Assembly: GCA_944350485.1 (NCBI GenBank)
Contig: CALVPE010000074.1
Span: 13,989-77,988 of the forward strand
DNA length: 64,000 bases
From: an uncultured Bacilli bacterium
GTDB taxonomy: Bacteria > Bacillota_I > Bacilli_A > RF39 > UBA660
Direction of reading: 5' to 3'
The translations under genes and the position numbers were made by a program. Below the pieces are notes generated by a model, which did no database searches, was not told the DNA's origin, and worked only from the letters and a program-made list of their open reading frames with translations. Position 1 is the stretch's first letter; each line of letters starts with the position of its first letter. Positions 5,372 to 57,038 of the stretch are shown here, piece by piece.

Positions 5372-5462
5372 ATTAATTCCTTGTTATTTTTTATAATATT
5401 AAAACCATTTTTTTAAAAGTCAATATAATATCTATATTTTATTGTTAGTCAACTACCCCCAG

Positions 5463-6622: not shown

Positions 6623-7080
6623 TATTTTTCCTGTTCTTCTATATACTTTACTAATTTTTGTAAACTAATATTTCCACTTGTTGCTAAATAATAACTATTG
6701 CTCCAAAAATGTTTACCCCATAACTTATCTGCTAAATATTGTTTATATTTATTTCTTATATATTTACTTGTTGACCCTTTTATAGTATTTATATATTTTT
6801 TTATGTCTAATGTAGGTTTTGTTTTTATCATTATATGTATATGGTCTTTATCAACTTCTTGTTCTATAACTTCAACATCAAAATTTTTTGATAAATCAAT
6901 TATTTTTGTTTTTAAATCATCTACAAGTTTATTATTATCAAATATTTTTTTTCTATATTTTACTACTAATATCAAATGATATATTAGTAAAAAAACAGAA
7001 TTACAACTTTTATCTAATTTATTCATATTTATTTTTTTTGTTATACTAATATTATAATAACCAAAAATATAAAAAGTCAA
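6622..7080 (-). CDS. tnpA: IS200-like Y1 (HuH) transposase TnpA
   Basis: HIHIMI (HuH motif) and SNSYYLATSGN. Size 152 aa. Confidence 0.85.
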   Translation of the reverse strand: MTFYIFGYYNISITKKINMNKLDKSCNSVFLLIYHLILVVKYRKKIFDNNKLVDDLKTKIIDLSKNFDVEVIEQEVDKDHIHIMIKTKPTLDIKKYINTIKGSTSKYIRNKYKQYLADKLWGKHFWSNSYYLATSGNISLQKLVKYIEEQEK

Positions 7081-7263
7081 GAAAATATTTTATTTTTAGC
7101 AATTTATCCCCCACTTAAAAGCAGGGGAATTCTTGCTATCTTACATTTAAATTTTTAATACTTTTATAAACATATTCTAAAAAGCTTATAAGCAATAAAA
7201 TTGGAATAACAAATAATTGCAATATAAATTCCAATATATCTATTATATAATGTATTATCTTTT

Positions 7264-15863: not shown

Positions 15864-15866
15864 AAT

Positions 15867-16979
15867 TTACTCTTTATTTTTTAATAATGAACTTAAATTT
15901 TTTAAATATTGATTAAATTTTTCTAACTCCTCAGGAGTTTTATCATTCTCATCAAGAGAATTTTCACTTGAAGATTCCTGTAAATCTTCTAATTCCTTTT
16001 TTGGTTTTTTTCTATTAGTACCACAAGCTTTTAATTCAGCAAGTCTACTAAAGAAAGTTTTAAAACCAGAATTCGTTAAACCAGACTTTTTTAAAAATCT
16101 TTCACAATCCTTAATGGTAAAGTTTTTAATAATATTTTGTTGATTTTCATAAGGTGAAATATAACTATTATCATTAGTGTTTTTTCTTATAATATCAAAA
16201 AGTAAATTTATTTTTTCTTTTAATTTTAATCTTTCATTTTCACTAATATTTAATGTATCAATATTATCTTTTCTTGAAAATTCAATAAGAGATTTAATAT
16301 TTATTTCTGGTTCACCTTCATTATTTATATCAATGAATAAACCATATTTTTTTTCACCATTAGCTAATAAATAAAAATCTTCATCCTTAAATTCTTCATT
16401 TTTTAAAATATTATTTAATTTTTGTTCAATATCTTTTTTATTAATAATTTTTTCTGGTGAACTTACTTTAATTTCATTAAGATTAATATTTTTAACATTT
16501 AAAATTTTTGCACTATCATTTGCTGGAAACATAACTAAACTTATTTCATGTAATTCAATATCTAATAATTCTCTTGTTTTATTGCTTTCGTTATAGAAAT
16601 CTTTTTTAACAATATATCCTATTGACATTTTTTTACATACACCAGCTTTTATTAAATTATAAGCTGTTCTTCCTTGTGGAATATTTAATAAAATTTTACC
16701 TTTTACAAATAATCCTATTTCATCTTCAAATATACTATTTATATCAAAAAATCCTATTGGATTATCAGTTTCATGAGACCATAGCATAGGTATATTTGTA
16801 TCATTTTTATTTTTTCTATTTTCTATGCTTTTTTGAAAAGCACCCTTTTTTACAACATCTCTATAACTATCTATTACTTCAAAAACAGAAGCATAACCTT
16901 CAAAATATCCATATTTGTCATCTTCTGTAAATTGTTTTATTTCAAAATTACTATCTAATTTTAATTCTTGCATTATCAA
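15867..16979 (-). CDS. HK97-family prohead protease (S78) with C-terminal extension
   Basis: GYASVFEVIDSYRDVVKKGAF...PMLWSHE signature. AGACTTCCATT motif about 55 bp upstream. Confidence 0.8.
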   Translation of the reverse strand: MIMQELKLDSNFEIKQFTEDDKYGYFEGYASVFEVIDSYRDVVKKGAFQKSIENRKNKNDTNIPMLWSHETDNPIGFFDINSIFEDEIGLFVKGKILLNIPQGRTAYNLIKAGVCKKMSIGYIVKKDFYNESNKTRELLDIELHEISLVMFPANDSAKILNVKNINLNEIKVSSPEKIINKKDIEQKLNNILKNEEFKDEDFYLLANGEKKYGLFIDINNEGEPEINIKSLIEFSRKDNIDTLNISENERLKLKEKINLLFDIIRKNTNDNSYISPYENQQNIIKNFTIKDCERFLKKSGLTNSGFKTFFSRLAELKACGTNRKKPKKELEDLQESSSENSLDENDKTPEELEKFNQYLKNLSSLLKNKE

Positions 16980-21532: not shown

Positions 21533-22153
21533 ATGACAATATTAATAAAAAATAGATTTAATAATTTATCAATGGATAATTTAATAATTAATGATTATAA
21601 TAAAAATTTAATTACATATTTAAAAGATTATAAAAAAAATATTGAAGAAAAAATAAATAATTACGAAAATATTATTTTAACTGGAAGTGTTGGAAGTGGA
21701 AAAACTTTTATTATGAGAAGTTTTTTTAATGATATCCAAAAAATTAAAATTAAAAGACAAAAAAGTTTTTATTATAATCAAATAGAAGAAGAAGATTATA
21801 TTTCTTCTATGTATGTAAATATGTATGATTTAATAAATGAATTAAGAAAAGAATATAAAGGTGAACATGTTGATAGTTTATTATTTACATGTGATTTGTT
21901 ATTTATTGATGAAATAGGTATACAATTTTGTACAGATGCAGAAAGACAAATACTTTTTAAATTAATAAATTATAGATATGAAAATTTTAAACCAATATTT
22001 TTAATTTCAAATCATCCTTTAAGGTCCACCAATGAAATTAAAGGTCTTTATTATATTTTAGGTGATAGAATAATGGATAGAATTTGTGATTGTAATTGTA
22101 AAGTATTTTGTTTTAATAATATAGAATCAATGAGAAAAAAATGTTTGAAATAA
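21533..22153 (+). CDS. DnaC/IstB-like helicase loader ATPase
   Basis: Walker A GSVGSGKT and Walker B LLFIDEIG. Confidence 0.7.
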   Translation: MTILIKNRFNNLSMDNLIINDYNKNLITYLKDYKKNIEEKINNYENIILTGSVGSGKTFIMRSFFNDIQKIKIKRQKSFYYNQIEEEDYISSMYVNMYDLINELRKEYKGEHVDSLLFTCDLLFIDEIGIQFCTDAERQILFKLINYRYENFKPIFLISNHPLRSTNEIKGLYYILGDRIMDRICDCNCKVFCFNNIESMRKKCLK

Positions 22154-24180
22154 AATTATATGATATTGAATGTGAACAAGTATTATTAGGATGTTTAATA
22201 TTAAATTCTGAAACATATTTTAAAATAAATTCAATAATAAAAAGTGAGTATTTTTTTGAAAGTGCTCATAAAGATATTTTTATTTTACTAAAAAATTTTT
22301 ATGAAAATGATAAGGTACAAGATTTAAAATCATTATCAGGCGAAATAAAAAATATTTTAAGAAAACATCATTATACAGATGATTATTTAAAATGCTTATT
22401 AAATATGGGAGCAGGAATAATTGATGTAGAAAGTTATTGTAATATAATTAAAAATTTTTATTTAAAAAGACAATTGAAAGATTTAGAAGAAAAAATTGAA
22501 TTAGAAATTAAAAAAAATACTAAAGCAGAAGATATATATGATAAAATAAAAAACAATTTAGAAAATATAGGAGAACAATCAAAAGAAGAACAATATACTT
22601 TTGATAATGCTATGGATATATGTGCTAAAAGAATATTGGATATAGAAAATACTATTAATAATAAAAATGAACCTGATAATATTATAAAAACTAATATTAT
22701 AGATTTTGATAGAAAGTTAGGTGGAATTTTTAGAAAAAAATTATTTGTTTTAGCTGGAAGGAGTTCGTCGGGAAAAGCGTTACCATTAGATACTAAAATA
22801 TTAACTAATAAAGGATGGATAAAAAATAAAAATATTAAAATAGGTGATAAAGTTATTGATCCATTTGGTAAAGAAGTTGTAGTTAATGGTGTTTTTCCAC
22901 AAGGAAGAAGAAGATGTTATAAAATATTTTTTGAAGATAGAATTATAGAAGCGGATAAAAATCATTTATGGGAGATATTTTTTGAAGATGAAATAGAACC
23001 AAAAATATTAAGCACTAAACAAATATATAAAATATTAAAAGATAAAAAAAATAATAAAAAGTTATGTATAAGGCTTTTTTGTGGAAAATATGGGCTTAAT
23101 AATAATAAAAGTATTTTATTTAAAAAATATGAAGCTAGAAAAAATTTTTTATTTAATTATCTTAATAAAAGAAAATATGAAATAAAAAGTTATAAAAAAT
23201 CTTTAATATTGCAACAATTAGCTTTTAGTTTAGGCATGAAGTGCCATATTATTTTTGATAAAATAAATAAAATATATAAAATAGATATTTATAAAAATAT
23301 TTCTAAAAAATTATATATTAATAAAATAGAAAAATCAAATTTTAAACATACACAATGTATTAGTGTTGATAGTAATGAACATCTCTATGTAATTCAAGAC
23401 TATATTGTTACTCATAATACTACACTTTCTTTACAAATTGCATTAAATGTAGCTAAACAAAATAAAAATGTTTTATTTTTTTCACAAGAAATGTGTTCTG
23501 AAGAGCAGGGAGATAAAATATTATCTAATGTTGCACAAATTAATTCTTCAAATATAAGAAAATCAGATGTTACTTATGAACAAATACAAAAAATGAAAAA
23601 TAATATGGAAGAAATAAATAAATTACCATTATATTTTAATGAAAAGTTAGGTATTAGTGGTGATTATGTAAGAAATGTTATTAAAAATTTTGAAAAAAAA
23701 GTCGGTAAAATTGATTTAGTTATTATAGATCACTTGCAAATAATGAGAACAGAAGATAATCAAAATAATAGGGTATTAGCTCTTGATAAATTATCTATGG
23801 ATTGTAAAAATATAGCAAAAGAATTTGATTGTGGCATGATATTGTTAAGTCAATTATCAAGAAAAACAGAAGAAAGAGATGATCCACGACCACAATTATC
23901 CGATTTAAGAGAAAGTGGTGGTATTGAACAAAATGCGGATGTTGTAGTTTTTATTTATCGGGAAGCTTATTATACAGAAAGAAAACTAAATGGGTTATTA
24001 GAAACAGATCCAAGATTCACTAGTTTATCTAATCAATTGAAAACTCAAAAAAATCAAGCAGATTTAATAATACAAAAAGATAGGGGGGGAAATTTAGGAA
24101 ATATAAAATTATATTTTGTCCCTGAATTTTCTTATTTTTCCGATATATATACTAAATATCTAGAAGATGCAAAAAAATAA
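22141..24180 (+). CDS. dnaB: Replicative DNA helicase DnaB interrupted by an intein in the P-loop
   Basis: N-terminal ECEQVLLGCLILNSE. P-loop LAGRSSSGK|...|TTLSLQIALNVA split by a 214-aa insert. C-terminal ...IIDHLQIM...ESGGIEQNADVVVFIYRE. Confidence 0.85.
   Translation: MFEIKLYDIECEQVLLGCLILNSETYFKINSIIKSEYFFESAHKDIFILLKNFYENDKVQDLKSLSGEIKNILRKHHYTDDYLKCLLNMGAGIIDVESYCNIIKNFYLKRQLKDLEEKIELEIKKNTKAEDIYDKIKNNLENIGEQSKEEQYTFDNAMDICAKRILDIENTINNKNEPDNIIKTNIIDFDRKLGGIFRKKLFVLAGRSSSGKALPLDTKILTNKGWIKNKNIKIGDKVIDPFGKEVVVNGVFPQGRRRCYKIFFEDRIIEADKNHLWEIFFEDEIEPKILSTKQIYKILKDKKNNKKLCIRLFCGKYGLNNNKSILFKKYEARKNFLFNYLNKRKYEIKSYKKSLILQQLAFSLGMKCHIIFDKINKIYKIDIYKNISKKLYINKIEKSNFKHTQCISVDSNEHLYVIQDYIVTHNTTLSLQIALNVAKQNKNVLFFSQEMCSEEQGDKILSNVAQINSSNIRKSDVTYEQIQKMKNNMEEINKLPLYFNEKLGISGDYVRNVIKNFEKKVGKIDLVIIDHLQIMRTEDNQNNRVLALDKLSMDCKNIAKEFDCGMILLSQLSRKTEERDDPRPQLSDLRESGGIEQNADVVVFIYREAYYTERKLNGLLETDPRFTSLSNQLKTQKNQADLIIQKDRGGNLGNIKLYFVPEFSYFSDIYTKYLEDAKK
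22777..23418 (+). other. Intein (214 aa) in the DnaB Walker A motif. It has a non-nucleophilic Ala1, ends ...VTHN, and the +1 residue is Thr
   Basis: Starts ALPLDTKILTNKGW (block A), ends ...DYIVTHN|TT. Excision gives GRSSSGKTTLSLQ. Ala at position 1 plus Cys in block F (TQCISVD) suggests a class 2/3-type intein. Its size leaves room for only a reduced endonuclease domain. Confidence 0.75.
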
Positions 24181-29026: not shown

Positions 29027-30667
29027 CTATATTTGATTTTTAAAAGGATAAAATGTAACATTTGAATTAACCATATCAATTTTATATTCTTCACCTTTAT
29101 TGACTAAAATAAAAGTGCTTGAAAATTGTCCTGTGGCACCATTGGAAATACCAGCAATTCTTTGAGTATTGTTATAAAAAGCACCGAAAGAATTAGCACC
29201 AGTAGATTGAAATTCGCTTATAATTATACCATTTGTTGGTGGAGTATAAGTAGTAGAAGAAATTGATATACCAGCAGAATAATCAACTTGAAATAAATTA
29301 ATTATATTATTTTTAGCATTTGTAGATATATTACTTAAATCATTATTTGCTAGTGTAAGTGGATAAAAAATATCTAAATCACAAAAATATAAACCATTAC
29401 CCAAAGATCCACCACTATTAATTAATGTATTTCCTATAATACATGAATATAAAAAACTTTCTTTATTTTCATTATCATATATTGTATTTAAATTTGAATC
29501 ATAAGTAAAATTTCTAAAATAAGGAACCTTACCTCTAGTAATAGCTATTTGTCTATTACCATAATATTCTTTGTTATCTTTAAATATAACATCTCCAACA
29601 ATATTTTCATTTTTTGTTTGTGTATATAATAAATTATTATTATTATCTCTTCCATCAGCTGTTATATATTCTACACCCGGAAGAATAAAAAAATATTCAC
29701 CAATAAAACCAAAACCATTAAAGGGAATAATCTTACTATCTATTCTACCGTTTATTGTTTCTAAACTTTTTATATAACAGCATACAGGCATTGATATACT
29801 TTCTATTAACCATTCATTAGTATTTTGATACTTTATTTTAATTACTTTATTTGTTAAATCATACCATAAATAATCTCGTGTAGTATCTAATTCTGGTTGT
29901 GTTTTAGATGCTATAACTTGTGAAGATTGATTATATGAATAAAAATTATCTTTATTTTTATTATAAACAATAATAAAAGTTCCTGTTCCTAAAATACTAG
30001 CAGTATAATCATGTTCTATAATTTTTTCTTCATATGTTGATCCAGATTTAATATATATATTAGTATTCTTTTTTATTTTAATATTTTGTAAACCTGCTAA
30101 ACTACTTCCTATATAACATTCAACAGTTTGTGGTACTTTTTTTAAATAATTAGTAATATATTTTAAATCTTGTTCTTGTGGATTATCATCATTATTATTA
30201 TTATCATTTTTTAAAATTATAAAACTATCTAATGCACTATTAAAAATTAATTGTACATATTCATTTTGCTTTATATATCCATTAGATATTCCTTCTTGGG
30301 ATATTTTTTCTCTTATTGATTTATCACCTAAACCATTAACATTTATAGTTGCATTAGTTAAATTATTTCCTTTTGAAAGAAAAATAACTACCATACCATC
30401 ATAATACATATTTGGTGCTTTAAAAGGATTTTTAGTTGATAATAAAATATGATTATAATCAGTAGTTACATCATCATAAAAATTACCTTTTGCAACATAA
30501 TTTGCTATTGATTTTGCCATTTGGTCTTCTTCATTCATAGAAGGAGTTAAATTAGCAGAATTAATAGTATTTATAAGTTCATTTCCTAAGATATTAAAGT
30601 CTTTAGCAGTACATTCACCAAATTTTGTATCACTTTCATCTTTTGGAAAATTTTCAAATTTAGACAT
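29027..30667 (-). CDS. tail fibre / receptor-binding protein
   Basis: Position in the fibre module. Size and Asn/Gly/Ser/Thr-rich beta-type composition. Confidence 0.45.
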   Translation of the reverse strand: MSKFENFPKDESDTKFGECTAKDFNILGNELINTINSANLTPSMNEEDQMAKSIANYVAKGNFYDDVTTDYNHILLSTKNPFKAPNMYYDGMVVIFLSKGNNLTNATINVNGLGDKSIREKISQEGISNGYIKQNEYVQLIFNSALDSFIILKNDNNNNDDNPQEQDLKYITNYLKKVPQTVECYIGSSLAGLQNIKIKKNTNIYIKSGSTYEEKIIEHDYTASILGTGTFIIVYNKNKDNFYSYNQSSQVIASKTQPELDTTRDYLWYDLTNKVIKIKYQNTNEWLIESISMPVCCYIKSLETINGRIDSKIIPFNGFGFIGEYFFILPGVEYITADGRDNNNNLLYTQTKNENIVGDVIFKDNKEYYGNRQIAITRGKVPYFRNFTYDSNLNTIYDNENKESFLYSCIIGNTLINSGGSLGNGLYFCDLDIFYPLTLANNDLSNISTNAKNNIINLFQVDYSAGISISSTTYTPPTNGIIISEFQSTGANSFGAFYNNTQRIAGISNGATGQFSSTFILVNKGEEYKIDMVNSNVTFYPFKNQI

Positions 30668-31281
30668 TATTTATCTCCTTTAATTATTTTTTTATCTAAA
30701 AATGTTATTTTAACATAACCATCACCACCTTTTCCACCAAATCCAGGGCTACTTGCTGTATTAGCATATCCACCACTACCACAGTATGTGTTTGGAATAA
30801 ATTCACTATATACAGTTGGATTTGCTCCAATATTTTTTGTAGCATTTATTCCTTTTTTTGCATTTTGTGGCTGTAAAATAGCATTACTATTTAAAATAGA
30901 TATATCTCCCCCTTCACCTTGTCTATATACAGATCCCTCTCTATTTGCTTGTCCGCCAAATCCACAACCACAAATAATTAAATTTTCTATTAAAGAATTA
31001 CTTCCTTGTTTAGCATTATTATTTCTATTACCATTACCACCACCAGCACCAACTTGTATATTATAAATTCCCGCATTTAAAAAAGCATTTCCTATATATA
31101 CAGCAGCTGAACCACCAGGGCTATTAGCACCACCACCACCACCACCAACTATTTCTATATAGTATGTTCCTCTGACATATATTTGTAATTGATAAGTTCC
31201 AGGAGTTCCTTGATCAAAAATAACTTGATTTTTTTGATATTTTGATATTCCGCCTAAATTATTTAAATGACTAATAAACAT
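30667..31281 (-). CDS. glycine-rich tail-fibre-associated protein
   Basis: Long GGGGG/GNG repeats (VGGGGGGANSPGG...GAGGGNGNRNN...GSGGYANTASSPGFGGKGGDG). Confidence 0.4.
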   Translation of the reverse strand: MFISHLNNLGGISKYQKNQVIFDQGTPGTYQLQIYVRGTYYIEIVGGGGGGANSPGGSAAVYIGNAFLNAGIYNIQVGAGGGNGNRNNNAKQGSNSLIENLIICGCGFGGQANREGSVYRQGEGGDISILNSNAILQPQNAKKGINATKNIGANPTVYSEFIPNTYCGSGGYANTASSPGFGGKGGDGYVKITFLDKKIIKGDK

Positions 31282-47587: not shown

Positions 47588-48892
47588 TTATTCCTTTTTA
47601 TTTGTACTTTCAAAATTTTTAGAAATTGCTTCATTTAATGGGGCAGTAGACATACCAACTCTAACTTTATCACCACCTTCAACTGCATCCAAATCATTAA
47701 TACTTCTAACTTCATTAGTTGTATAAGCTTCTGTCTTTTTAGCCTTTTCCATAACATCTAAAATATCTTTCATTAATAAATTAATATTAGACTTATTATA
47801 TGTGAGTTTATATCTTCCAGTTTTATCATATTTTGGCATTAAAAAACTATCAAGTTTATCATATAATAAGTTTGTAAAAGGTATAATTGTATTAATTATA
47901 AAGGCTTTTCTTGCTTCTTCTGCTGAATTATATGTTTTTGCACTTATAACACCACATTCTTCTGCTGGAATTCCCATAACCATACATATCATTTGAATAG
48001 ATAATTCAATTAATTTTGAAAAATCCATATCTTTTATACTGCTTGATAGATTTTGTACTTTTATACCACCTTCTAATAAAATAGGTCTACCTGCATTTTC
48101 TGAACCACTATATCTACTATTTAATTGTTCATTTAATATAGTTCTTTGTTCATCAGTTAAAATACCATCATAACCATCTTTTGGTTCAACAATAAAAGCT
48201 ATACTAGGTCTAGCTCCATTTTGTAAAAATGATAAATTAAACTTATTTGCTATATCTATATGATTAATAGCATCAGAAGCGGATTCTAATGGACTTGTTC
48301 CATTATCTTTAAAATTATCACTTGTGGGATTATAAAAAGTTTGTTTAAAAAAATAACTTTTTTCATCATAGTATGGAATATTTTTAATTGTTTTATTTTC
48401 TTGTCCCATTGTAACATTATAATCTATTACATTTCCCTTTTCATCATTATTAGATACATTTACATTACCTGGCATAATTCTTTTTAATGATAAAATATTA
48501 TTACCTTTCATTTCAGCATACAAATAATAAACTCCATAAATAAAAAGATCATTTACTAAATCTCTAATTATTTCTTTCCAAACTTGTTCTCTATTAGGTC
48601 TTTTTAAAATTTCATTTAATAATAATTTTGTATCTCTCTTATGTTCTAGTGTATCAATAATCATTGGCTCTAAACTACAAACAGCATTAGAAAATCTATC
48701 AATAACTGTTCTTAAAATAGCATTTTTTGTATATTTATCTGATAAATCAACAGTTACCACATTTAAAGAATTCCATCTAAAAATTTTTAAAGCTCCATTA
48801 TTATATGTACTTATTTCTTCTAGTTTATTATTATTACTATTAGGAATAAAACTTTTTATATTGAAAATGTTTTGAGATTTATTAAAAATCAT
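47588..48892 (-). CDS. portal protein
   Basis: 434 aa. Portal-like conserved core (...GIPAEECGVISAKTYNSAEEARKAFIINTIIPF...). Follows the terminase. Confidence 0.7.
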   Translation of the reverse strand: MIFNKSQNIFNIKSFIPNSNNNKLEEISTYNNGALKIFRWNSLNVVTVDLSDKYTKNAILRTVIDRFSNAVCSLEPMIIDTLEHKRDTKLLLNEILKRPNREQVWKEIIRDLVNDLFIYGVYYLYAEMKGNNILSLKRIMPGNVNVSNNDEKGNVIDYNVTMGQENKTIKNIPYYDEKSYFFKQTFYNPTSDNFKDNGTSPLESASDAINHIDIANKFNLSFLQNGARPSIAFIVEPKDGYDGILTDEQRTILNEQLNSRYSGSENAGRPILLEGGIKVQNLSSSIKDMDFSKLIELSIQMICMVMGIPAEECGVISAKTYNSAEEARKAFIINTIIPFTNLLYDKLDSFLMPKYDKTGRYKLTYNKSNINLLMKDILDVMEKAKKTEAYTTNEVRSINDLDAVEGGDKVRVGMSTAPLNEAISKNFESTNKKE

Positions 48893-48894
48893 TT

Positions 48895-49122
48895 TTATTT
48901 TTTACTTATTATTAAAACAGAAATTATAAAAAATATAAACATTAGAGAATATTTTAAAATATCAAAATATGTACTTGCATTTAATAAAAAAAATGGTGTA
49001 TAAATCATACATGCAACACAAATAATAATACATATATTGCTAATATTTTCTAATATTTTTATTATAATATTTTTTAAAAAAAGATAAAATTTATTTAAAA
49101 TCATTGATATTTTTTTAAACAT
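48895..49122 (-). CDS. small hydrophobic protein between terminase and portal
   Basis: Two TM-like segments. Confidence 0.3.
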   Translation of the reverse strand: MFKKISMILNKFYLFLKNIIIKILENISNICIIICVACMIYTPFFLLNASTYFDILKYSLMFIFFIISVLIISKK

Positions 49123-51688
49123 AACTTATATTTATTCTCCTTTGTTTAGTTTTATTAAAATAATTTCTAGCCCAATTAATTACTTGTGATAAAGAATCAA
49201 CTGCATCATCATGTACACTATCATTTTTGCTAGGAAATACATTTAATTCTCTCTCTATTTCTTTTATAACATATATTTGTTTTTTGTCAAGTCTAGTAAT
49301 TTTATTATATTCTTTTGGAAAAAATACTCTACCATTATTTATTTCAAGGGAACATGATTTTGCTCTATCTTCTTTTGATAATTTTGGAGAAAAACAAATA
49401 ACAATTTTATTTTTTCTAGGATCTTTTTTTTCTAATAAACCACCATATATTAATATTTCAAGTTCATTAATAATTTCATAACCACTACTTTTTTCTTCAA
49501 CTATTATAAAGTCTGGTTGATATTCAATATACCAATCAATAACTCTTCTAACAAACAATGGTGTTTTTTCTTGTGTTAAACTAGCTTCTAAAAGATATGA
49601 TTGTAATTCTTTTCTTTTTGTAATATTATTTGTATAAGTATTAAATCCCCATAATTGCATTGATTGATAATCATTTTCTCCATTAGATGAATCTATTGAA
49701 ATAACTCTTTTTTCAAAAATAATATCTTTTATATTATCATTAGTATATTTATTAATACAATTTATATTAAATATTTTTGTATCTTCTTCTTCACATTTTT
49801 GAAACATTTGCCATTGAAAATCAATATCATTGTTTATTAAGTTTCTATGAAGTTCAAATCTATTATCATCAAATTTATCTGGAAATATAAAATCTCCATT
49901 TTTGACAAACCATTTTCTATAAGGACTAATAAAATATTTTCCAGATAATAATTTATTATTTTTTGCATCATAATATTCTTCTACTTGATTTTCTATTTTT
50001 GCAGGTATTTCTATATGTTTCCATTTGGAACTGTTAGGAAGTCTTAATAAATATCCAGTTGTGTCATTTTCTGCTATTCTTTGCATACAAATGATTAATG
50101 GAGCTTCGGAACCTATTATACCCCTATCCCTTGTAATACAACCACTTACAATTTCATTCATTTTTGTTAAATAAGTATCTTTTTCTGTTTTAAATCTAGT
50201 ATAATCATTTGGATCATCAAAAATTGTAAAATCAGAATCGGTACCTGTTATATTACCTTGCATTGTTTTTATTGTAATACTACCACCACCTTCTATTTGT
50301 TCTCCATAATTAAATTTTTCTAAGAAAAATACTTCTTCTGTATTTTTTTGATTTTTATCTATTTTAACTTGTGGAAATAATTGTTGATAATAATCAGAAT
50401 TTAATATTTCTTTAATATGTCTAACATATTTATTTCTAACGGTATCAGCACCGGAAATAATTAAAAATCTAGTATGTGGAAAAAATCCAATATAAAGACA
50501 TACAAAAGATATTAAACTATTGGTATTATGGCAAACTGTATAATTATCAAGTAAATATAAATGATTACCATCTAATTCAAAACCATAATATTTATCATAT
50601 CCCATGCTTTCAATATTAAATTTTTGTAAAGATAAATATATAGGATTATCTTTAAAATGATTTTTTTTATTTTTTAATGATATTTTTTCTATATTACCAT
50701 GAATATATATTTTATAAAATTGTTTATTTTTAATAAATTTTGTATACTTTTTTGTATAAAATCCTAAACTTCTTGATAAATCAATTATAAAATTTGTTTT
50801 TTCTAAATTATTGCAAATTATTTCAATTTCATTATTTGATTTTATAAATCCCCTTCCATCAACTATTCCGGATAATAGTTTTAATCTTATATCTTCATTA
50901 TTAAAAATATAATCATTTAAAAATTCTTTATTTTTTTCTATTTTATCTAATATTTTAAATTTCTTATTATTAAAAAATTTATTATTTAGTTTATTTAATT
51001 CTATTGTATGTAATGTTTTATTTTTATTTGATAAATATAAACCAACAAAATAAGGATTTATATCTACTTTTTTATATTTATAAAGTATCTTATTTTTTAC
51101 CATTCTATGATTTTTTTTAAAATCTTCATCTTGTTTTAAATAGTCATCAACAGTGATTTTAATAAAATTTTTATCATTTATATTATATAAATATAAAATA
51201 TGTTCTTTATTACAAGTAAATTGTGTATCATCATCCATAGTAATTTTATACATATTAGAATAACTACTTCCTAATGATATGACATTTCTAGGAGTACTAT
51301 CATCTCCCATTATTTTATCTCCTATTACTATGTCTTCAACTTTTTTTAAAGTTCCATCATACATTCTTATTAATGTACCTTTACCATGACATTTACCATG
51401 TCCAGGTGGAATATTAATAATTAAAAATTTATTTCTTTTTTCTAAAATTTCTTTTAAAAAATCAAAATAATACTTAAAATACCAATTAAATTTAAAATTT
51501 ACTTGCGGTTCACATATTCTACAACATATTTCATGAAACAGAACCATATTATTTATTAACCAGTAATAATCTGGATAAAAATTACCATTTTCATCAACTT
51601 CTAATGTTATATTATCAGTTATTCTTTTAGAAAAAACTGTTTTATAATATTCTAATGTATTTTTTTTATTTTCTAACTCAGAAGTCAT
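49115..51688 (-). CDS. terminase large subunit interrupted by an intein in the ATPase P-loop
   Basis: NIPPGHGK|...|TNSLISF reconstitutes the Walker A motif PPGHGKT after removal of a 289-aa insert. The C-terminal nuclease-like region includes FIIVEEKSSG and DDAVDSLSQ. Confidence 0.8.
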   Translation of the reverse strand: MTSELENKKNTLEYYKTVFSKRITDNITLEVDENGNFYPDYYWLINNMVLFHEICCRICEPQVNFKFNWYFKYYFDFLKEILEKRNKFLIINIPPGHGKCHGKGTLIRMYDGTLKKVEDIVIGDKIMGDDSTPRNVISLGSSYSNMYKITMDDDTQFTCNKEHILYLYNINDKNFIKITVDDYLKQDEDFKKNHRMVKNKILYKYKKVDINPYFVGLYLSNKNKTLHTIELNKLNNKFFNNKKFKILDKIEKNKEFLNDYIFNNEDIRLKLLSGIVDGRGFIKSNNEIEIICNNLEKTNFIIDLSRSLGFYTKKYTKFIKNKQFYKIYIHGNIEKISLKNKKNHFKDNPIYLSLQKFNIESMGYDKYYGFELDGNHLYLLDNYTVCHNTNSLISFVCLYIGFFPHTRFLIISGADTVRNKYVRHIKEILNSDYYQQLFPQVKIDKNQKNTEEVFFLEKFNYGEQIEGGGSITIKTMQGNITGTDSDFTIFDDPNDYTRFKTEKDTYLTKMNEIVSGCITRDRGIIGSEAPLIICMQRIAENDTTGYLLRLPNSSKWKHIEIPAKIENQVEEYYDAKNNKLLSGKYFISPYRKWFVKNGDFIFPDKFDDNRFELHRNLINNDIDFQWQMFQKCEEEDTKIFNINCINKYTNDNIKDIIFEKRVISIDSSNGENDYQSMQLWGFNTYTNNITKRKELQSYLLEASLTQEKTPLFVRRVIDWYIEYQPDFIIVEEKSSGYEIINELEILIYGGLLEKKDPRKNKIVICFSPKLSKEDRAKSCSLEINNGRVFFPKEYNKITRLDKKQIYVIKEIERELNVFPSKNDSVHDDAVDSLSQVINWARNYFNKTKQRRINISYV
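50525..51391 (-). other. Intein (289 aa) with LAGLIDADG homing-endonuclease domain in the terminase Walker A motif
   Basis: Cys1 at CHGKGTLIRMYDGTL (block A). Block B T..H in FTCNKEH. Two LAGLIDADG-like motifs (YFVGLYLSNKNK and LSGIVDGRGF). Block F YGFELDGNHLYLL. Terminal TVCHN with +1 Thr. Confidence 0.8.
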
Positions 51689-52976: not shown

Positions 52977-53606
52977 TTATTCATAATCTGCAAAATCACT
53001 ATTTCCATAATATTTAATACCAGTAATAGTATTTAAAAAGCAGGCTTTGTCGTTTTCGTCTAAAATAGGTACTAAATTATAAAGTAGTGTATCATCTTCG
53101 TATATTTGAAAGTAATATAACTTATAGTTTCTCAAACCCTGTGTAGCAACATCTCTTCTATTATTGGTAAAAAGAGACAAGTTATAACTACCTTGCCAAT
53201 CATAAGTTGGTTCAACAATAGTTGTTATAAGTTCATCATCAACAAATATTTGAGCATTGTATAGCATATATTTTCTTCTAACACCAACAACTGTTGGACT
53301 ATCCCATATATTCTGTCCTACATCCCTTCCCCAAGTTGAAGAATAAACATTGTTATTCCTCAAATATAAAGTAAAACTTAAATTACTCCAAGAAATTTCA
53401 CCACCAAAAATAAAACCTTCTTTAAAACCACTTGTTTTTCCTTCACCTTCAAAAATTATTTTTGTCTTTTGATTAGGTGTATAATCAAGTTTTACATAAT
53501 TACCATCTCCATTAGCAATATAAGTCAAATATTTATATTTTGATTGACTTTTATTTAATAACAAATGATGTCTTAATAATAAACTAGACATAAGCAATAA
53601 CTCCAA
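52977..53606 (-). CDS. tail-fibre-associated / receptor-binding-domain-like protein
   Basis: Directly downstream of, and overlapping, the repeat-containing fibre gene. Confidence 0.3.
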   Translation of the reverse strand: MELLLMSSLLLRHHLLLNKSQSKYKYLTYIANGDGNYVKLDYTPNQKTKIIFEGEGKTSGFKEGFIFGGEISWSNLSFTLYLRNNNVYSSTWGRDVGQNIWDSPTVVGVRRKYMLYNAQIFVDDELITTIVEPTYDWQGSYNLSLFTNNRRDVATQGLRNYKLYYFQIYEDDTLLYNLVPILDENDKACFLNTITGIKYYGNSDFADYE

Positions 53607-54645
53607 TGTTATTAAGAATAGATACTTGATAAGTTTTGCTTGCTTCTATTGTAGGTGTACCACCAACCCAAGAAATACCTTCAATATTTAAAGTTGTAGG
53701 TGTCGTTCCACTTATAAACTCAAAAGCATATAAAGGTGTTTTATTTTCTTGTGGAGCTGTTAATGTGATATTAAGCTGTGCTACCTCACCAAAGCTATAA
53801 AACTTTTCTGCTTCTAATGATACAGTTGTATTTGTTTCTGTAATCATATCAGTAAGAACATCATTTTTAGTAGCATAAGCAGATAAATCAATAGTTCCAC
53901 CTAATTTATCCCATTGTGTACCATTCCAAGCATAATTATCATCTGTATCTAATACATTATATACATCACCAATCTTATTATTTTCTTGTGGAAGTTCACT
54001 TACTGTGTCAACATTTCCCTTATAAACAAAAACAGAACTAATTTTAGAATCTATTTCACTTTTAGTATAGGCATCTTCAATACCATATCCTGAAAGTGTG
54101 GTAGATTTATTTGCTTTACTATCAAGACTTGTTATTGTAGCATATGTTGAATTAGCTTCGTTTTTAGTTAAATAATCACTCAAATCTTCTGGTTGAATAG
54201 CAGAATCGGCTTTAACACCTTGCTCATATGTAGCATATTTTGTATCTGATTGTGTCTTTGTATAAGCATCTGTAATACCATAACCAGATAATGTTGTTGA
54301 TTTATTAGCTTTATTAGCTAAATCATTTGTTGTTGCATAACTACCAGCTGGTTGAAGCCCTAAATCAGTTGAAGTCTTATTACCAGTTAATGTAATTCCA
54401 TTAATTTGTGGTTTATTAGAGAGTAAGTTATAGTTTGTAGTACCACCAGAACCACCACCTCCACCAATTATATCGGAAAGTAATGAAATTGAACCATCAG
54501 GATTTAAAACTTTATTAACAATAGGTAATCTTTTTTTATATTCTTCTGCTTGATAATCAATAGAACTTCCATTTAATGTAGTTATTGATCCATCTTCATT
54601 AAGCATTTTATTTGCTATTGGACTATATTTATCATATTTGTTCAT
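53584..54645 (-). CDS. tail fibre protein with internal tandem repeats
   Basis: G-run GGGGGSGG. Duplicated KANKSTTLSGYGI(T/E)DAYTK units. Ser/Thr/Asn-rich. Confidence 0.5.
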   Translation of the reverse strand: MNKYDKYSPIANKMLNEDGSITTLNGSSIDYQAEEYKKRLPIVNKVLNPDGSISLLSDIIGGGGGSGGTTNYNLLSNKPQINGITLTGNKTSTDLGLQPAGSYATTNDLANKANKSTTLSGYGITDAYTKTQSDTKYATYEQGVKADSAIQPEDLSDYLTKNEANSTYATITSLDSKANKSTTLSGYGIEDAYTKSEIDSKISSVFVYKGNVDTVSELPQENNKIGDVYNVLDTDDNYAWNGTQWDKLGGTIDLSAYATKNDVLTDMITETNTTVSLEAEKFYSFGEVAQLNITLTAPQENKTPLYAFEFISGTTPTTLNIEGISWVGGTPTIEASKTYQVSILNNIGVIAYV

Positions 54646-54713
54646 AAAAAATTAAGTGTTATTATTTTAATTAGATAATAACACTAAAAAATACTAAAAA
54701 GCAAGATTAAAAA

Positions 54714-55160
54714 TTAATTACATTTGCTAGAACTTATTTTATTATAATAATTAAATTTTTTTATTTTATTATCATCGCAGTAAACATTTCCAAGTTCTTT
54801 TTTAAGTACTTGCTCTCCATAATCTTTACCATCAACTTCAACATATCTAAGTTTACGATTGTATCTATCCCTGTCTCTTCTATCTTTAATTAAGGTAACC
54901 TTTTTTCCTTGAAGTTTTTGAGTAGCAAATTTTTTTCCTTTGCTAGATAACTTTTTTATTTTGCTTTTGCTATATCCAGTTCTATCTTGCTGTTTTTTAA
55001 CCATTCTACTATTAGTGTCATAAGTATCTATTCCTAAAATTCTTATTTTTCCATTGTTTTTAGTCTCAATAGTATCCCCATCTATAACACGAATAACAAC
55101 ATCTTCTTCCTTAAAACCACAAAGAAATAATAATATTAAACAAAATAATATTTTTTTCAT
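54714..55160 (-). CDS. secreted thermonuclease (staphylococcal nuclease-like)
   Basis: Signal peptide MKKILFCLILLFLCGF, then VIDGDTIETKNNGKIRILGIDTYDTN (SNase catalytic signature) and RDRDRYNRKLRYVEV. Confidence 0.7.
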   Translation of the reverse strand: MKKILFCLILLFLCGFKEEDVVIRVIDGDTIETKNNGKIRILGIDTYDTNSRMVKKQQDRTGYSKSKIKKLSSKGKKFATQKLQGKKVTLIKDRRDRDRYNRKLRYVEVDGKDYGEQVLKKELGNVYCDDNKIKKFNYYNKISSSKCN

Positions 55161-55169
55161 AACAACCCC

Positions 55170-56225
55170 TTATTTTTTTAATAAATATTTATTAGAAATA
55201 ACTTTAAAAGATAAATCGTAGTTTAAACTTCTAATAACAAAACCTTCTCTTAATGATTGTTTATTAATTAATGAATTACCATCAGCTTCATTTAATATAT
55301 CATCAATATTATCAAATTTAAGAGTTTTTCTATCAAATAAAGGCACAATATCAAACAAATTATTAAAATATTGCATAAGACTATAGTCTATTTTTTGTCC
55401 ATTTATAAAAATATTAAATATATATAGTTTATTTTCTGTTAATTTATAGTTATTTTGTTGTATATTTGGACCTATAAGCTCACCTTGTAATACCACACTG
55501 TTAACTTTATCATTTAAAAGAGATAAAGTTTTATTTTTTAAGTCATGTTTTTCTACATAATCTACATATTTTCTAGTATCTTTATTTGGTTTTTGCATAT
55601 TAATTTGATAATTTCTAGTACAAATACCAAATTCTATGACTTCTCTCTTAAAAAATAAATATTTTCTCTTTTGTACTTTTCTAGCAAATAAAGTAAATGA
55701 TGTACCATCTAGCTTTTCTGTAATATAAAACTTATCTTCTACATCTTTTAGAACTTTTGTCATATTTTGTATTCTTTCTTCATCTGTTTTTTGTATCCAA
55801 TTAGGAAAAGGTAGATAAGAATTGTTTTTCTTTTTATTTTTATTAGCCTTTTTTTCATCTTCATACTTTTCAAATTTAGTAATACCTAGTAAATAAGTGA
55901 CATCTTGACCTTCTTTTATTTTTTTTATTTCAGTAAATTTTGAAATAGGCATAGCTAATCCTTGTGATAAAACACCAGCCATTTTAATAGTTTTAATTTT
56001 ATAACCAACTTTTTCAAATTGTTTAAATCTTTGATCTTCTTTTGGTAATAAGCTATCTATTTCAAAATAAACAACTAAATCTCCCTTTTTTATTTCATTT
56101 TTATCTACTATAACTTTCCATCCTAATATGGTTGCTAATGCAATCTTGTCTTTATTAGGAATTGGTTGTACATCTAAAACTCTTTCTATATGTGCTAATT
56201 TTCTAGTCATTTTATTTTTTCTCAA
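55170..56225 (-). CDS. ATP-dependent RNA ligase with N-terminal OB-like domain (Rnl5 / DraRnl-like architecture)
   Basis: Nucleotidyltransferase motif I ITEKLDGTS (KxDG). N-terminal approximately 140-aa region preceding the NTase core. Confidence 0.55.
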   Translation of the reverse strand: MRKNKMTRKLAHIERVLDVQPIPNKDKIALATILGWKVIVDKNEIKKGDLVVYFEIDSLLPKEDQRFKQFEKVGYKIKTIKMAGVLSQGLAMPISKFTEIKKIKEGQDVTYLLGITKFEKYEDEKKANKNKKKNNSYLPFPNWIQKTDEERIQNMTKVLKDVEDKFYITEKLDGTSFTLFARKVQKRKYLFFKREVIEFGICTRNYQINMQKPNKDTRKYVDYVEKHDLKNKTLSLLNDKVNSVVLQGELIGPNIQQNNYKLTENKLYIFNIFINGQKIDYSLMQYFNNLFDIVPLFDRKTLKFDNIDDILNEADGNSLINKQSLREGFVIRSLNYDLSFKVISNKYLLKK

Positions 56226-56544
56226 AATTAATAAATGGATAATAAGCTATTTTTCTAGTTTCTATTTTACTAATACCGTAAATAACATCGTCTGTATTTA
56301 GTATTTCTATAAGATGTGTAACATCACTTATAAATTCTTTTTTATCTTTATAAACACTTGCGATCTTTCTATTATTATCTAAAACAATTTCGTAAATGTA
56401 GTAATGTTTTTCTGGTGAATCTTCAACTTCAAAAAAATTAACAATAGATATATGTTCCAGTCCTATTATTACTTCTGAATCAGTTATATCATCTTTAAAA
56501 AATTTATATCTCATATTTACATATCCTTTATTATTAAATAGCAA
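56212..56544 (-). CDS. hypothetical protein
   Basis: ORF overlapping the start of the ligase gene. sigma70-like promoter about 120 bp upstream. Confidence 0.3.
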   Translation of the reverse strand: MLFNNKGYVNMRYKFFKDDITDSEVIIGLEHISIVNFFEVEDSPEKHYYIYEIVLDNNRKIASVYKDKKEFISDVTHLIEILNTDDVIYGISKIETRKIAYYPFINFEKK

Positions 56545-56814
56545 GCACTTTTTGCTGTGATATGTCTAATCTGACACCATACAGACAATAAGTATAATAC
56601 AAATAAATAGTATAACATAGATAATTTTCTTTATTACATAGTATAATTTTATAAGGTGAATTTATAAAGTCAATAATCTTTGATTAGTTTTGTTAAAAAA
56701 ATTGTGTTGGTGGGAGATGGGGCTACCCACTTTTGTTATGCCCCTTAAACTCATTTTTTTCAATGCTAGGGGGGTATTTACATTAAAAATATTTTTAAAA
56801 AATTAAAAATAAAG

Positions 56815-56844
56815 TTGACTTTAAAAATAAAATAGTGTTATAAT
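56815..56844 (+). promoter_or_regulatory. strong sigma70-like promoter (TTGACT-18-TATAAT) for the right-hand plus-strand operon
   Basis: aaagTTGACTttaaaaataaaatagtgtTATAATaat. Confidence 0.55.
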
Positions 56845-57038
56845 AATAATGTAATTAATAATTTTTAAAATAAATTTTAAAAAATAAAAAAAATATATAT
56901 ATTATATAAAATTTTAAAAAAATAGCCCTGCGAGAGAACACCTATAAAAAGGCTTCTGCTGGCAGTGTATCAAAAAATAGATTGTCAGCAATCGCGGGGC
57001 TGTATTATATATTATTAATAATTAAAATGAGGTTCAAA

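What the first reader, a model, noticed from the sequence alone, without database searches (positions are those of the whole stretch)
54714..56544. RNA ligase with OB-domain-first architecture next to a secreted staphylococcal-type nuclease, in a cargo slot beyond the tail-fibre locus
The ligase has KxDG motif I (EKLDGTS) about 150 aa from the N-terminus, preceded by an OB-like domain. This order resembles Rnl5/DraRnl-type ligases rather than T4 Rnl1/Rnl2. Phage RNA ligases typically repair tRNAs cleaved by host anticodon nucleases, but no polynucleotide kinase or phosphatase partner is visible. The adjacent thermonuclease has a signal peptide and so acts outside the cytoplasm. Together with the Ro60-like gene, this points to an RNA repair or anti-defence toolkit.
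Basis: partly seen in the sequence, partly recalled or inferred. Interest (0 to 1): 0.55.

Follow-up and report, generated by a model that had tools for sequence, protein, structure and literature searches.

The report
Stand-alone Rnl5 RNA ligase in phage
This phage gene is an intact member of a known family of RNA ligases that seal nicks in double-stranded nucleic acid; the exported nuclease gene next to it looks unrelated in function, so the finding is real but ordinary.

Summary
The gene at 55170..56210 (minus strand, 346 aa) has an N-terminal OB domain followed by a nucleotidyltransferase domain. It aligns end to end with Naegleria gruberi RNA ligase (E 1.9e-40; model TM 0.81-0.85). All 12 NgrRnl active-site residues checked are conserved. 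It shows no DNA-ligase or T4 Rnl1 signature, so it belongs to the Rnl5 (DraRnl/NgrRnl) family.

This family has been known in phages since 2007. I found it in 343 GenBank phage records and at least 557 IMG/VR contigs.

The neighbouring gene (54714..55160) encodes a staphylococcal-nuclease-like protein. It has a 16-residue hydrophobic N-terminus and a Cys pair conserved in its clade, so it is plausibly exported.

The "toolkit" reading is only partly supported:
- No kinase, phosphatase, RtcB, Thg1 or cREC gene was found across about 99.5% of the ~83 kb genome, although 44 of 80 related viral ligase loci have such neighbours.
- The nuclease never accompanies the ligase elsewhere (0 of 86 loci).
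- Related phages carry the nuclease without the ligase nearby.
- The Ro60-like gene is real but lies 53 kb away.
- The 100-aa gene upstream of the ligase has no relatives in the databases searched.

Verdict: a new member of a known kind, of low interest.

The parts
55170..56210 (-). Rnl5-family ATP-dependent RNA ligase, 346 aa from the ATG start (the TTG-start ORF extends to 56225)
   Evidence: PF21189 plus PF09414; phrog_968 E 2.5e-77; full-length match to NgrRnl at E 1.9e-40; AF2 model pLDDT 89.5 with TM 0.81-0.85 to NgrRnl structures.
55944..56198 (-). N-terminal OB domain of the ligase (PHA02142 OB-fold). It keeps the counterparts of NgrRnl Arg4 and Asp53 (Arg3 and Asp52 here); the Lys121 counterpart, Lys112, lies just downstream.
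   Evidence: E 2.1e-24; residue mapping; roles of these residues in NgrRnl, PMC7261155.
55200..55733 (-). Nucleotidyltransferase domain with motifs I, III, IIIa, IV and V. The protein ends 10 residues after the motif V lysine, Lys336.
   Evidence: T142, R146, K166, D168, R199, E244, F265, E322 and K336 align with NgrRnl T145, R149, K170, D172, R190, E227, F248, E312 and K326.
55713..55715 (-). AAG codon of the motif I lysine (Lys166 in EKLDGTS), the predicted AMP attachment site
   Evidence: Aligns with NgrRnl Lys170.
56212..56514 (-). 100-aa ORF with no detectable relatives, directly upstream of the ligase. Its TAA stop lies one base before the ligase ATG, which suggests translational coupling.
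   Evidence: Among 1.84 billion representative proteins the only match is its own 91% variant. No Pfam, PHROG or PADLOC hit. AF2 pLDDT 50, not usable.
54714..55160 (-). Staphylococcal-nuclease-like protein, 148 aa, probably exported
   Evidence: PF00565 at 28 bits against a cutoff of 21. PDB SNase E 3e-5, aligning residues 17-135. NCBIfam EcnA and NucI hits fall below their cutoffs. PADLOC SNc+LTD domain-level hit.
55113..55160 (-). N-terminal hydrophobic segment MKKILFCLILLFLCGF of the nuclease, either a signal peptide or a membrane anchor
   Evidence: It lies outside the SNase core. Kyte-Doolittle mean reaches 3.5. All 12 family members have an N-terminal hydrophobic segment; distant members have a classic lipobox (LVAC, GTAC) and close members conserve LCGFKE.
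54652..54688 (-). AT-rich 11-bp hairpin followed by UUAAUUUUUU, between the nuclease and the fibre-like gene. It may be a weak terminator that ends a three-gene unit.
   Evidence: -10.2 kcal/mol, z -2.07; inverted repeat I6. This is an inference only.
56646..56673 (-). Promoter-like site (TTGACT, 16-nt spacer, TAAAAT) upstream of the 100-aa ORF
   Evidence: 10 of 12 matches. The number of such sites in the region is no higher than in shuffled sequence, so this is weak evidence.
52977..54645 (-). Downstream co-oriented genes: a fibre-like protein with repeats (353 aa, 53584..54645) and a 204/209-aa protein (52977..53606). These are context, not part of the ligase function.
   Evidence: weak PHROG tail-fibre hits; no Pfam hit; gene calls.

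Best explanation
The central gene encodes a catalytically intact Rnl5-family (DraRnl/NgrRnl-type) ATP-dependent polynucleotide ligase.

Mechanism, inferred from the family. Lys166 attacks ATP to form ligase-AMP. This step is assisted by the N-terminal OB domain, which positions the pyrophosphate leaving group, and by two metal ions held by Asp168, Glu244 and Glu322. AMP is then transferred to a 5'-phosphate at a nick. Finally an RNA 3'-OH attacks to seal the nick in a duplex.

Setting. In this ~83 kb, 22% GC phage the ligase is a stand-alone accessory gene. It is translationally coupled to a 100-aa protein with no detectable relatives. No end-healing enzyme is encoded in the covered genome, so on its own it can join only breaks that already carry 3'-OH and 5'-phosphate ends.

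Most likely role (inference). It probably reseals nicked structured RNA during infection, because about half of its closest viral relatives sit beside RNA-repair genes.

The neighbouring nuclease. The SNase-like gene is an independent accessory gene. Its product is exported or membrane-anchored and most likely degrades extracellular or incoming nucleic acid. It is not a partner of the ligase.
For: - Family identity: Pfam OB plus RNA_ligase domains; phrog_968 E 2.5e-77; full-length NgrRnl match at E 1.9e-40; TIGR02306 at 144 bits; AF2 model pLDDT 89.5 with TM 0.81-0.85 to NgrRnl, against 0.44 to T4 Rnl2 and 0.34 or less to DNA ligases.
- Catalytic competence: all 12 NgrRnl active-site residues checked are conserved. 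Their roles are documented in PMC7261155.
- Family biochemistry: PMC4408790, PMC1807946 and PMC5397189.
- Link to RNA repair: 44 of 80 of the closest IMG/VR loci have an AAA_33 kinase (with or without an HD-like motif), Metallophos, cREC_REC, Rnl1-like or Thg1 gene within 4 kb.
- Stand-alone status: profiles built from those partner families give nothing better than E 0.01 against six-frame ORFs of the window plus L005 and L008, about 82.5 of 82.9 kb. Pfam scans and precomputed tables show no PNK, RtcB or phosphatase.
- Nuclease independence: 0 of 86 Rnl5 loci carry an SNase. Relatives L015 and L016 have the SNase without a ligase nearby. The hydrophobic N-terminus and the clade-conserved Cys pair suggest export.
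Against: - No biochemistry was done, so substrate preference and metal dependence are extrapolated from homologues about 39% identical over the aligned columns.
- The NCBIfam equivalog score is just under its cutoff (144.1 against 151.15).
- The biological role of Rnl5 ligases is not established in any phage. In D. radiodurans the only phenotype points to DNA repair.
- In cultured phages the gene often lies among replication genes.
- 36 of 80 related loci also lack RNA-repair neighbours, so the neighbourhood argument is only statistical.
- About 320-400 bp of the genome was not covered.
- Export of the nuclease was not tested with a dedicated predictor. Its general-base position (SNase Glu43) is Asp in this clade.
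Confidence: 0.8

Rival explanations
1. The ligase works on phage DNA rather than RNA. It would seal nicks whose 3' end carries ribonucleotides, such as retained primer RNA or 'ribo-patch' gap filling, during replication or RecT-mediated recombination.
For: - Loss of DraRnl delays genome reassembly after irradiation, and the authors propose ribo-patch nick sealing (PMC5397189).
- In Microcystis phage Mic1, the Pakpunavirus phage PseuPha1 and Aeromonas phage 25 the homologue lies among primase, helicase, gp32 and RNase H genes.
- This phage encodes DnaB, a DnaC-like loader, SSB, RecT and a PD-(D/E)XK nuclease, but no DNA ligase or polymerase was found.
Against: - The closest viral relatives are most often next to RNA end-healing and tRNA-repair genes.
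- Here the gene is not in the replication module. It lies in a block with a fibre-like gene.
- Nothing was tested directly.
Confidence: 0.25
2. One reading: the ligase, the secreted thermonuclease and Ro60 form a coordinated RNA-repair or anti-defence toolkit.
For: - All three genes are present in one genome.
- TROVE proteins and ATP-dependent RNA ligases are both counted among phage RNA-repair components (PMC7824862).
Against: - Ro60 is 53 kb from the ligase, and no Y RNA or tRNA was detected.
- No TROVE or SNase gene lies within 6 kb of the ligase in 86 other loci.
- The SNase occurs without the ligase in related phages.
- The SNase is probably extracytoplasmic.
- From established enzymology, SNase-type cleavage leaves 3'-phosphate/5'-OH ends that this ligase cannot join.
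Confidence: 0.1
3. Like T4 gp63 (Rnl1), the ligase has a second role in tail-fibre attachment, which would explain why it shares a block with a fibre-like gene.
For: - The ligase lies in the same minus-strand block as the 353-aa fibre-like gene.
- In Aeromonas phage 25, rnlA is annotated as both an RNA ligase and a tail-fibre attachment catalyst.
Against: - It belongs to a different ligase family; there is no RNA_lig_T4_1 hit.
- A hairpin that may act as a terminator separates the nuclease from the fibre gene.
- Fibre genes did not appear among the recurrent neighbour families in the 80 viral loci.
- This is positional coincidence only.
Confidence: 0.03
4. It is an ATP-dependent DNA ligase that has been misread as an RNA ligase.
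For: It shares the covalent nucleotidyltransferase fold, so DNA ligases appear as weak structural matches.
Against: - No DNA_ligase_A_M hit at E 0.1 or below.
- There is no C-terminal OB domain. The OB domain is N-terminal and resembles tRNA-binding OB folds.
- TM to DNA ligases is 0.34 or less, against 0.81-0.85 to NgrRnl.
Confidence: 0.02

Closest known systems
Naegleria gruberi RNA ligase NgrRnl (PDB 5COT/5COU), the structural prototype of the Rnl5 family
   Same: Same two-domain order, N-terminal OB then nucleotidyltransferase, with no C-terminal domain. Full-length alignment at E 1.9e-40 and about 39% identity over the aligned columns. All 12 active-site residues checked are conserved. 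Model TM 0.81-0.85.
   Different: The host is a phage rather than a eukaryote. There is a 13-residue insertion after motif I and a Lys/Asn-rich, low-confidence linker between the domains (residues 116-126). Activity has not been tested.
Deinococcus radiodurans DraRnl (DRB0094; NCBIfam TIGR02306)
   Same: Matches the family model end to end (residues 10-350 against profile positions 2-341) at 144.1 bits. The motif layout is the same as described in PMC1807946.
   Different: The score is just below the equivalog cutoff of 151.15. Motif I reads KLDG here and KLHG in DraRnl.
Phage Rnl5 homologues (phrog_968): Aeromonas phages 44RR2.8t and 25, Pseudomonas Pakpunavirus, Microcystis phage Mic1
   Same: Same family and architecture. 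343 GenBank phage records hold a homologue, 332 of them covering at least 80% of the query. Phage homologues have been recognised since 2007.
   Different: Identity is only 33-36%, and the nearest metagenomic relatives reach about 40%. The genomic setting differs: here the gene sits beside an SNase and a fibre-like gene, elsewhere among replication or RNA-repair genes.
T4 Rnl2 and T4 Rnl1 with Pnkp (the classic phage tRNA-repair pathway)
   Same: Shares the covalent lysyl-AMP chemistry. According to the literature, its in vitro nick-sealing specificity matches that of Rnl2.
   Different: No RNA_lig_T4_1 hit, and no Rnl2-type C-terminal domain. TM to Rnl2 is only 0.44, over the nucleotidyltransferase domain alone. 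No Pnkp partner exists in the covered genome.
Staphylococcus aureus nuclease A (thermonuclease, PF00565)
   Same: SNase fold. The counterparts of Asp21, Arg35, Asp40, Thr41, Tyr85 and Arg87 are conserved. Like Nuc, it has an N-terminal export segment.
   Different: Low similarity (E 3e-5). Glu43 is replaced by Asp. It has a clade-specific C-terminal Cys pair. It falls below the NCBIfam EcnA and NucI cutoffs.

Membership tests
Rnl5 (DraRnl/NgrRnl) nick-sealing RNA ligases | An N-terminal OB domain precedes the nucleotidyltransferase domain | tested here: met
   PF21189 at residues 10-94 (E 2.1e-24), then PF09414 at residues 165-342. The AF2 model superposes on NgrRnl over both domains.
Rnl5 (DraRnl/NgrRnl) nick-sealing RNA ligases | Motif I KxDG lysine nucleophile, plus the motif III, IIIa, IV and V residues | tested here: met
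   K166, D168, E244, F265, E322 and K336 align with NgrRnl K170, D172, E227, F248, E312 and K326.
Rnl5 (DraRnl/NgrRnl) nick-sealing RNA ligases | OB-domain and nucleotidyltransferase residues that hold the ATP gamma-phosphate and second metal (NgrRnl R4, D53, K121, R149) | tested here: met
   R3, D52, K112 and R146 are conserved. Their roles are given in PMC7261155.
Rnl5 (DraRnl/NgrRnl) nick-sealing RNA ligases | The polypeptide ends shortly after motif V, with no C-terminal domain | tested here: met
   K336 in a 346-aa protein. The alignment reaches the C-terminus of NgrRnl.
Rnl5 (DraRnl/NgrRnl) nick-sealing RNA ligases | Score above the curated NCBIfam TIGR02306 equivalog cutoff | tested here: inconclusive
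   144.1 bits against a cutoff of 151.15, with full-length coverage. Both Pfam gathering thresholds are passed.
Rnl5 (DraRnl/NgrRnl) nick-sealing RNA ligases | Seals 3'-OH/5'-PO4 nicks only when the 3'-OH strand is RNA, and depends on Mn2+ | not testable with these tools
   Requires recombinant enzyme assays. The properties are known for DraRnl and NgrRnl.
T4 Rnl1 family | RNA_lig_T4_1 (PF09511) nucleotidyltransferase domain and a C-terminal tRNA-binding domain | tested here: not met
   No PF09511 hit at E 0.1 or below. An Rnl1-like neighbour in other loci does hit PF09511, which shows the test can detect the family.
T4 Rnl2 / RNA-editing ligase family | N-terminal nucleotidyltransferase domain followed by an Rnl2-type C-terminal domain | tested here: not met
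   The domain order is reversed. TM to 2HVR is 0.44, over the nucleotidyltransferase domain only.
ATP-dependent DNA ligases | DNA_ligase_A_M adenylation domain plus a C-terminal OB domain | tested here: not met
   No Pfam hit. TM is 0.34 or less.
Staphylococcal nuclease (SNase, PF00565) | SNase OB-fold domain above the Pfam gathering score | tested here: met
   28 bits against a cutoff of 21. PDB SNase matches at E 3e-5.
Staphylococcal nuclease (SNase, PF00565) | Ca2+ ligands (D21, D40, T41) and catalytic residues (R35, E43, R87) | tested here: inconclusive
   D29, D45, T46, R40 and R102 are conserved. The Glu43 position is Asp48 here and in the whole close clade.
Staphylococcal nuclease (SNase, PF00565) | Secretion signal, meaning extracytoplasmic action | tested here: inconclusive
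   The hydrophobic N-terminus lies outside the core and is present across the family. Distant relatives have a lipobox, and the close clade has a conserved Cys pair. No dedicated signal-peptide predictor was available.
Phage RNA repair cassette (ligase plus end-healing kinase/phosphatase) | A polynucleotide kinase and a 2',3'-phosphoesterase encoded with the ligase | tested here: not met
   Profiles of kinase-HD, small AAA_33, Metallophos, cREC and Rnl1-like neighbour families, and a tblastn search with a Thg1 sequence, gave no significant hit in about 82.5 of 82.9 kb. Pfam tables show none.

The most novel reading that the evidence does not exclude
The ligase and its translationally coupled 100-aa protein could form a repair module that needs no end healing. 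It would directly reverse cuts made by metal-dependent host nucleases that leave 3'-OH/5'-phosphate ends, for example PIN/VapC-type or Toprim-type tRNA-cleaving defences. This would explain why the phage does without a kinase/phosphatase, which about 40% of its closest relatives keep next to the ligase. The 100-aa protein would supply target specificity.
Probability: 0.1. Interest if true: 0.5.

Novelty: new member of a known kind. Interest (0 to 1): 0.2.

Why it matters
The physiological role of Rnl5 ligases is still unknown in phages, and in bacteria rests on one organism, so each well-defined context adds a little. This case shows an apparently fully competent Rnl5 enzyme kept by a mid-sized phage that encodes no end-healing enzyme. 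Many of its nearest relatives do pair the ligase with a kinase-HD, cREC, Metallophos or Thg1 gene. That contrast suggests a simple experiment: compare partnered and stand-alone phage Rnl5 enzymes on hosts armed with nucleases that leave different end chemistries. Beyond that, the finding mainly corrects the annotation. The ligase is Rnl5, and the nuclease next door is an unrelated exported enzyme.

Tried and rejected
- Looked for close relatives of the locus among GenBank phages by DNA similarity. Only short matches in crAss-like phages covering 4% or less of the query.
- Looked for tRNA, tmRNA, Y RNA or any Rfam family: whole window at gathering threshold and at E 1 or below, and two sub-regions at E 5 or below. 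Nothing significant.
- Searched 1.84 billion representative proteins for relatives of the 100-aa ORF. Only its own variant was found. Its single-sequence AF2 model has pLDDT 50, so no fold search was attempted.
- Tried to obtain precomputed annotation for the middle of the genome through exact look-ups of DnaB and the 514-aa protein. Neither is on record, probably because the start codons were called differently.
- Tested whether the two GC-rich intergenic islands are repeated in the genome or related to the IS605 ends. Only AT-rich chance matches were found.
- Scanned IMG/VR for the closing stem of one island. The 25 hits all lie in contigs of 47-74% GC, mostly above 55%, with unrelated interiors, so they are chance matches.
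- Looked for flanking direct or inverted repeats that would mark the five-gene block as a mobile insertion. None beyond low-complexity AT runs.
- Tried to name the host through TnpB relatives in genomes. The best match is only 48-50% identical, in an uncultured Clostridium MAG, which is not informative enough.
- A literature search for the NCBIfam name 'EcnA' returned nothing relevant.
- Rejected the idea that SNase and ligase are a functional pair, and rejected the DNA-ligase reading, for the reasons given under the rival explanations.
Full report
**Setting**

The window is a 22% GC phage genome fragment. The same phage occurs in several metagenomes as contigs of 82,865 to 82,946 bp. The window plus two fetched flanks, L005 and L008, cover about 82.5 kb of it (my coordinate arithmetic).

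The region of the finding holds three co-oriented minus-strand genes:
- the ligase at 55170..56210 (346 aa from the ATG);
- a 148-aa nuclease at 54714..55160.

The upstream ORF's TAA stop lies one base before the ligase ATG, so the two are probably translationally coupled. Downstream on the same strand are a repeat-containing, fibre-like 353-aa gene and a 204/209-aa gene. Upstream is a 524-bp divergent intergenic region.

**Identity of the ligase**

Pfam finds the PHA02142 OB-fold domain (residues 10-94, E 2.1e-24) followed by RNA_ligase PF09414 (residues 165-342, E 4e-19). PHROGs places the protein in phrog_968 'RNA ligase' at E 2.5e-77. It aligns over its full length with Naegleria gruberi RNA ligase at E 1.9e-40. 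It also covers NCBIfam TIGR02306 (RNA_lig_DRB0094) end to end at 144.1 bits, just under the 151.15 cutoff.

I mapped the alignment onto the NgrRnl active site described in PMC7261155. All twelve residues checked are conserved: R4, D53, K121, T145, R149, K170, D172, R190, E227, F248, E312 and K326 of NgrRnl correspond to R3, D52, K112, T142, R146, K166, D168, R199, E244, F265, E322 and K336 here.

An AlphaFold model built on 22 homologues has pLDDT 89.5. It matches NgrRnl structures at TM 0.81-0.85. T4 Rnl2 reaches only 0.44 and DNA ligases 0.34 or less.

**How common the family is**

Homologues in phages were noted when the family was defined, with Aeromonas phage 44RR2.8t (PMC1807946). A tblastn search finds homologues in 343 of 50,697 GenBank phage records, 332 of them covering at least 80% of the query. 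More than 5,300 proteins in the large protein collection match at E 1e-10 or below. At least 557 IMG/VR contigs encode a relative. The present protein is divergent, with its nearest relatives about 40% identical, but it is not unusual in architecture.

**Mechanism**

By homology, the enzyme should follow the classic three-step pathway. Lys166 is adenylylated by ATP, a step that in this family needs the OB domain and two metal ions. AMP is then transferred to the 5'-phosphate at a nick. Finally an RNA 3'-OH attacks. These steps are inferred, not shown here.

**Is there a repair partner?**

In the closest metagenomic relatives the ligase lies one small gene away from a ~315-aa P-loop kinase (AAA_33). 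I noticed an HD-like FHDIGK motif in its C-terminal half, but Pfam did not report an HD domain for it. In another relative the ligase lies two genes from a Thg1-like enzyme.

I counted gene families within 4 kb of the ligase across 80 IMG/VR loci:

| Neighbour family | Loci (of 80) |
|---|---|
| Kinase with HD-like motif (AAA_33) | 25 |
| Small AAA_33 kinase | 6 |
| Calcineurin-like phosphoesterase (Metallophos) | 13 |
| cREC_REC cyclic-phosphate-processing domain | 9 |
| Rnl1-like ligase (RNA_lig_T4_1) | 9 |
| Thg1 | 4 |
| At least one of the above | 44 |

This agrees with published views of phage RNA-repair cassettes (PMC7824862). It makes RNA repair the most likely ancestral role of this branch of the family.

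This phage lacks all of these partners. Profiles I built from the neighbour families, and tblastn with a Thg1 sequence, found nothing better than E 0.01 in six-frame ORFs of the ~82.5 kb covered. Pfam scans and precomputed tables show none either.

The genome does encode DnaB, a DnaC-like loader, SSB, RecT, a PD-(D/E)XK nuclease, dCMP deaminase, dUTPase and methyltransferases. No polymerase or DNA ligase was found. Acting alone, the ligase can join only ends that are already 3'-OH and 5'-phosphate. Being locally stand-alone is not rare, since 36 of the 80 loci also lack such neighbours.

**The nuclease**

The 148-aa protein passes the Pfam SNase threshold (28 bits against 21) and aligns with S. 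aureus nuclease from residue 17 onward. The counterparts of Asp21, Arg35, Asp40, Thr41, Tyr85 and Arg87 are present. The general-base position, Glu43, is Asp here and in all close relatives.

The first 16 residues, MKKILFCLILLFLCGF, lie outside the fold and are strongly hydrophobic. All 12 detectable family members have such a segment. Distant members carry a classic lipobox, and the close clade conserves LCGFKE and two C-terminal cysteines. Export or membrane anchoring is therefore plausible, though I had no dedicated predictor to test it.

The nuclease does not travel with the ligase. No SNase gene lies within 6 kb of the ligase in 86 other loci. Two related phages carry this SNase at 66-69% identity beside RusA, a methyltransferase and a thymidine kinase, with no ligase in the retrieved flanks.

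One of those relatives, L016, is collinear with the window from 44.8 to 52.7 kb. After that point it has the SNase in the opposite orientation and no counterpart of the ligase, the fibre-like gene or the 100-aa gene. The block is thus a variable accessory region. I found no flanking repeats that would mark a mobile element. An AT-rich hairpin followed by a U-run between the nuclease and the fibre-like gene may end a three-gene unit; this is weak evidence.

**Ro60 and the 'toolkit' idea**

The Ro60-like gene is real: TROVE plus Ro60 vWA domains, phrog_850, PDB 9L5Y at E 2e-18, and homologues in 86 phage records. It lies 53 kb from the ligase. No TROVE gene lies near the ligase in 86 other loci. 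No Y RNA, tRNA or other Rfam family was detected anywhere in the window. The three genes may each bear on nucleic-acid conflicts, but nothing ties them into one system.

**The upstream 100-aa ORF**

It has no relative other than its own 91% variant among 1.84 billion representative proteins. It has no family hit and no usable structure prediction. Its function is unknown. Its coupling to the ligase is the only unusual feature of the locus.

**Verdict**

The family assignment is correct and well supported. The 'no partner' remark is confirmed for about 99.5% of the genome. The proposal of a joint toolkit with the nuclease and Ro60 is not supported.

This is a new, divergent member of a known and widespread kind. 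The biological role remains an inference. I put RNA nick repair at about 0.5, DNA ribo-nick sealing at about 0.25, and other roles at the remainder.

Noticed in passing
window 56515..57038 (islands at 56702-56778 and 56925-57010): The 524-bp divergent intergenic region upstream of the ligase operon holds two GC-rich islands (45% GC in a 22% GC genome). Apart from the one next to TnpB, they are the only non-coding GC-rich islands in the window. One folds as a three-way junction with a 10-12 bp GC-rich closing stem and, on the minus strand, is followed by a run of seven U. The other has two hairpins with an alternative GGGGC/GCCCC pairing. Fold z-scores are -3.7 and -4.8. There is no Rfam match, no copy elsewhere in the genome and no relative in IMG/VR.
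   Followed up: partly
window 49115..51688 (-): The large terminase ORF (857 aa) carries an intein: Hom_end_hint PF05203 at residues 100-387, E 7.7e-18. The homologue in related phage L016 has one too.
   Followed up: partly
window 8322..10511 (-) and 22141..24180 (+): The SF2 helicase has a weak Intein_splicing hit inside a ~450-residue gap between its ResIII and Helicase_C domains. DnaB has a ~320-residue gap between its N- and C-terminal domains. These may be two further inteins.
   Followed up: no
window 5372..7260; also L005 4406..5365: An IS200/IS605 element sits inside the phage: Y1 transposase at 6622..7080 and TnpB at 5639..6622. A GC-rich island at 5439-5551 just downstream of tnpB is the expected place for its guide RNA or right end. 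A second TnpB lies outside the window.
   Followed up: no
window 14511..16979 (-): An HK97-type capsid gene (PF05065) and an S78 prohead protease sit among replication and recombination genes, about 30 kb from the portal (47588..48892) and terminase. This is an unusual split of the head module, or possibly a second capsid set.
   Followed up: no
window 1266..2561 (-): A phage Ro60/TROVE protein (431 aa, shorter than the ~500-residue chains in the PDB) with no Y RNA or tRNA-like RNA detectable nearby or anywhere in the window.
   Followed up: partly
window 1..550 and L005 2533..3390: A FolD-like methylenetetrahydrofolate dehydrogenase/cyclohydrolase gene is cut by the start of the window.
   Followed up: no
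L017 7213..7982, L019 7172..7729, L082 10527..11496 and others: In several related viral loci the ligase is followed by one or two paralogous proteins that begin with a conserved RRxVFETNSSSTHS motif. They have no Pfam match and their function is unknown.
   Followed up: no
L017 4807..5754, L019 4706..5674, L046 7164..8054: The commonest neighbour of phage Rnl5 ligases (25 of 80 loci) is a ~300-aa fusion of an AAA_33 P-loop kinase with a C-terminal region that carries an HD-like motif (FHDIGK or LHDYGK). It is likely a combined 5'-kinase and 2',3'-phosphoesterase healing enzyme. Pfam reported only the kinase part.
   Followed up: partly
window 30667..31281 (-) and 53584..54645 (-): Two proteins with glycine-rich features. 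The first has a Gly_rich_2 domain and lies in the main tail module. The second is the fibre-like protein next to the nuclease, which has a GGGGSGG linker and a repeated NKANKSTTLSGYGI(T/E)DAYTK motif.
   Followed up: no
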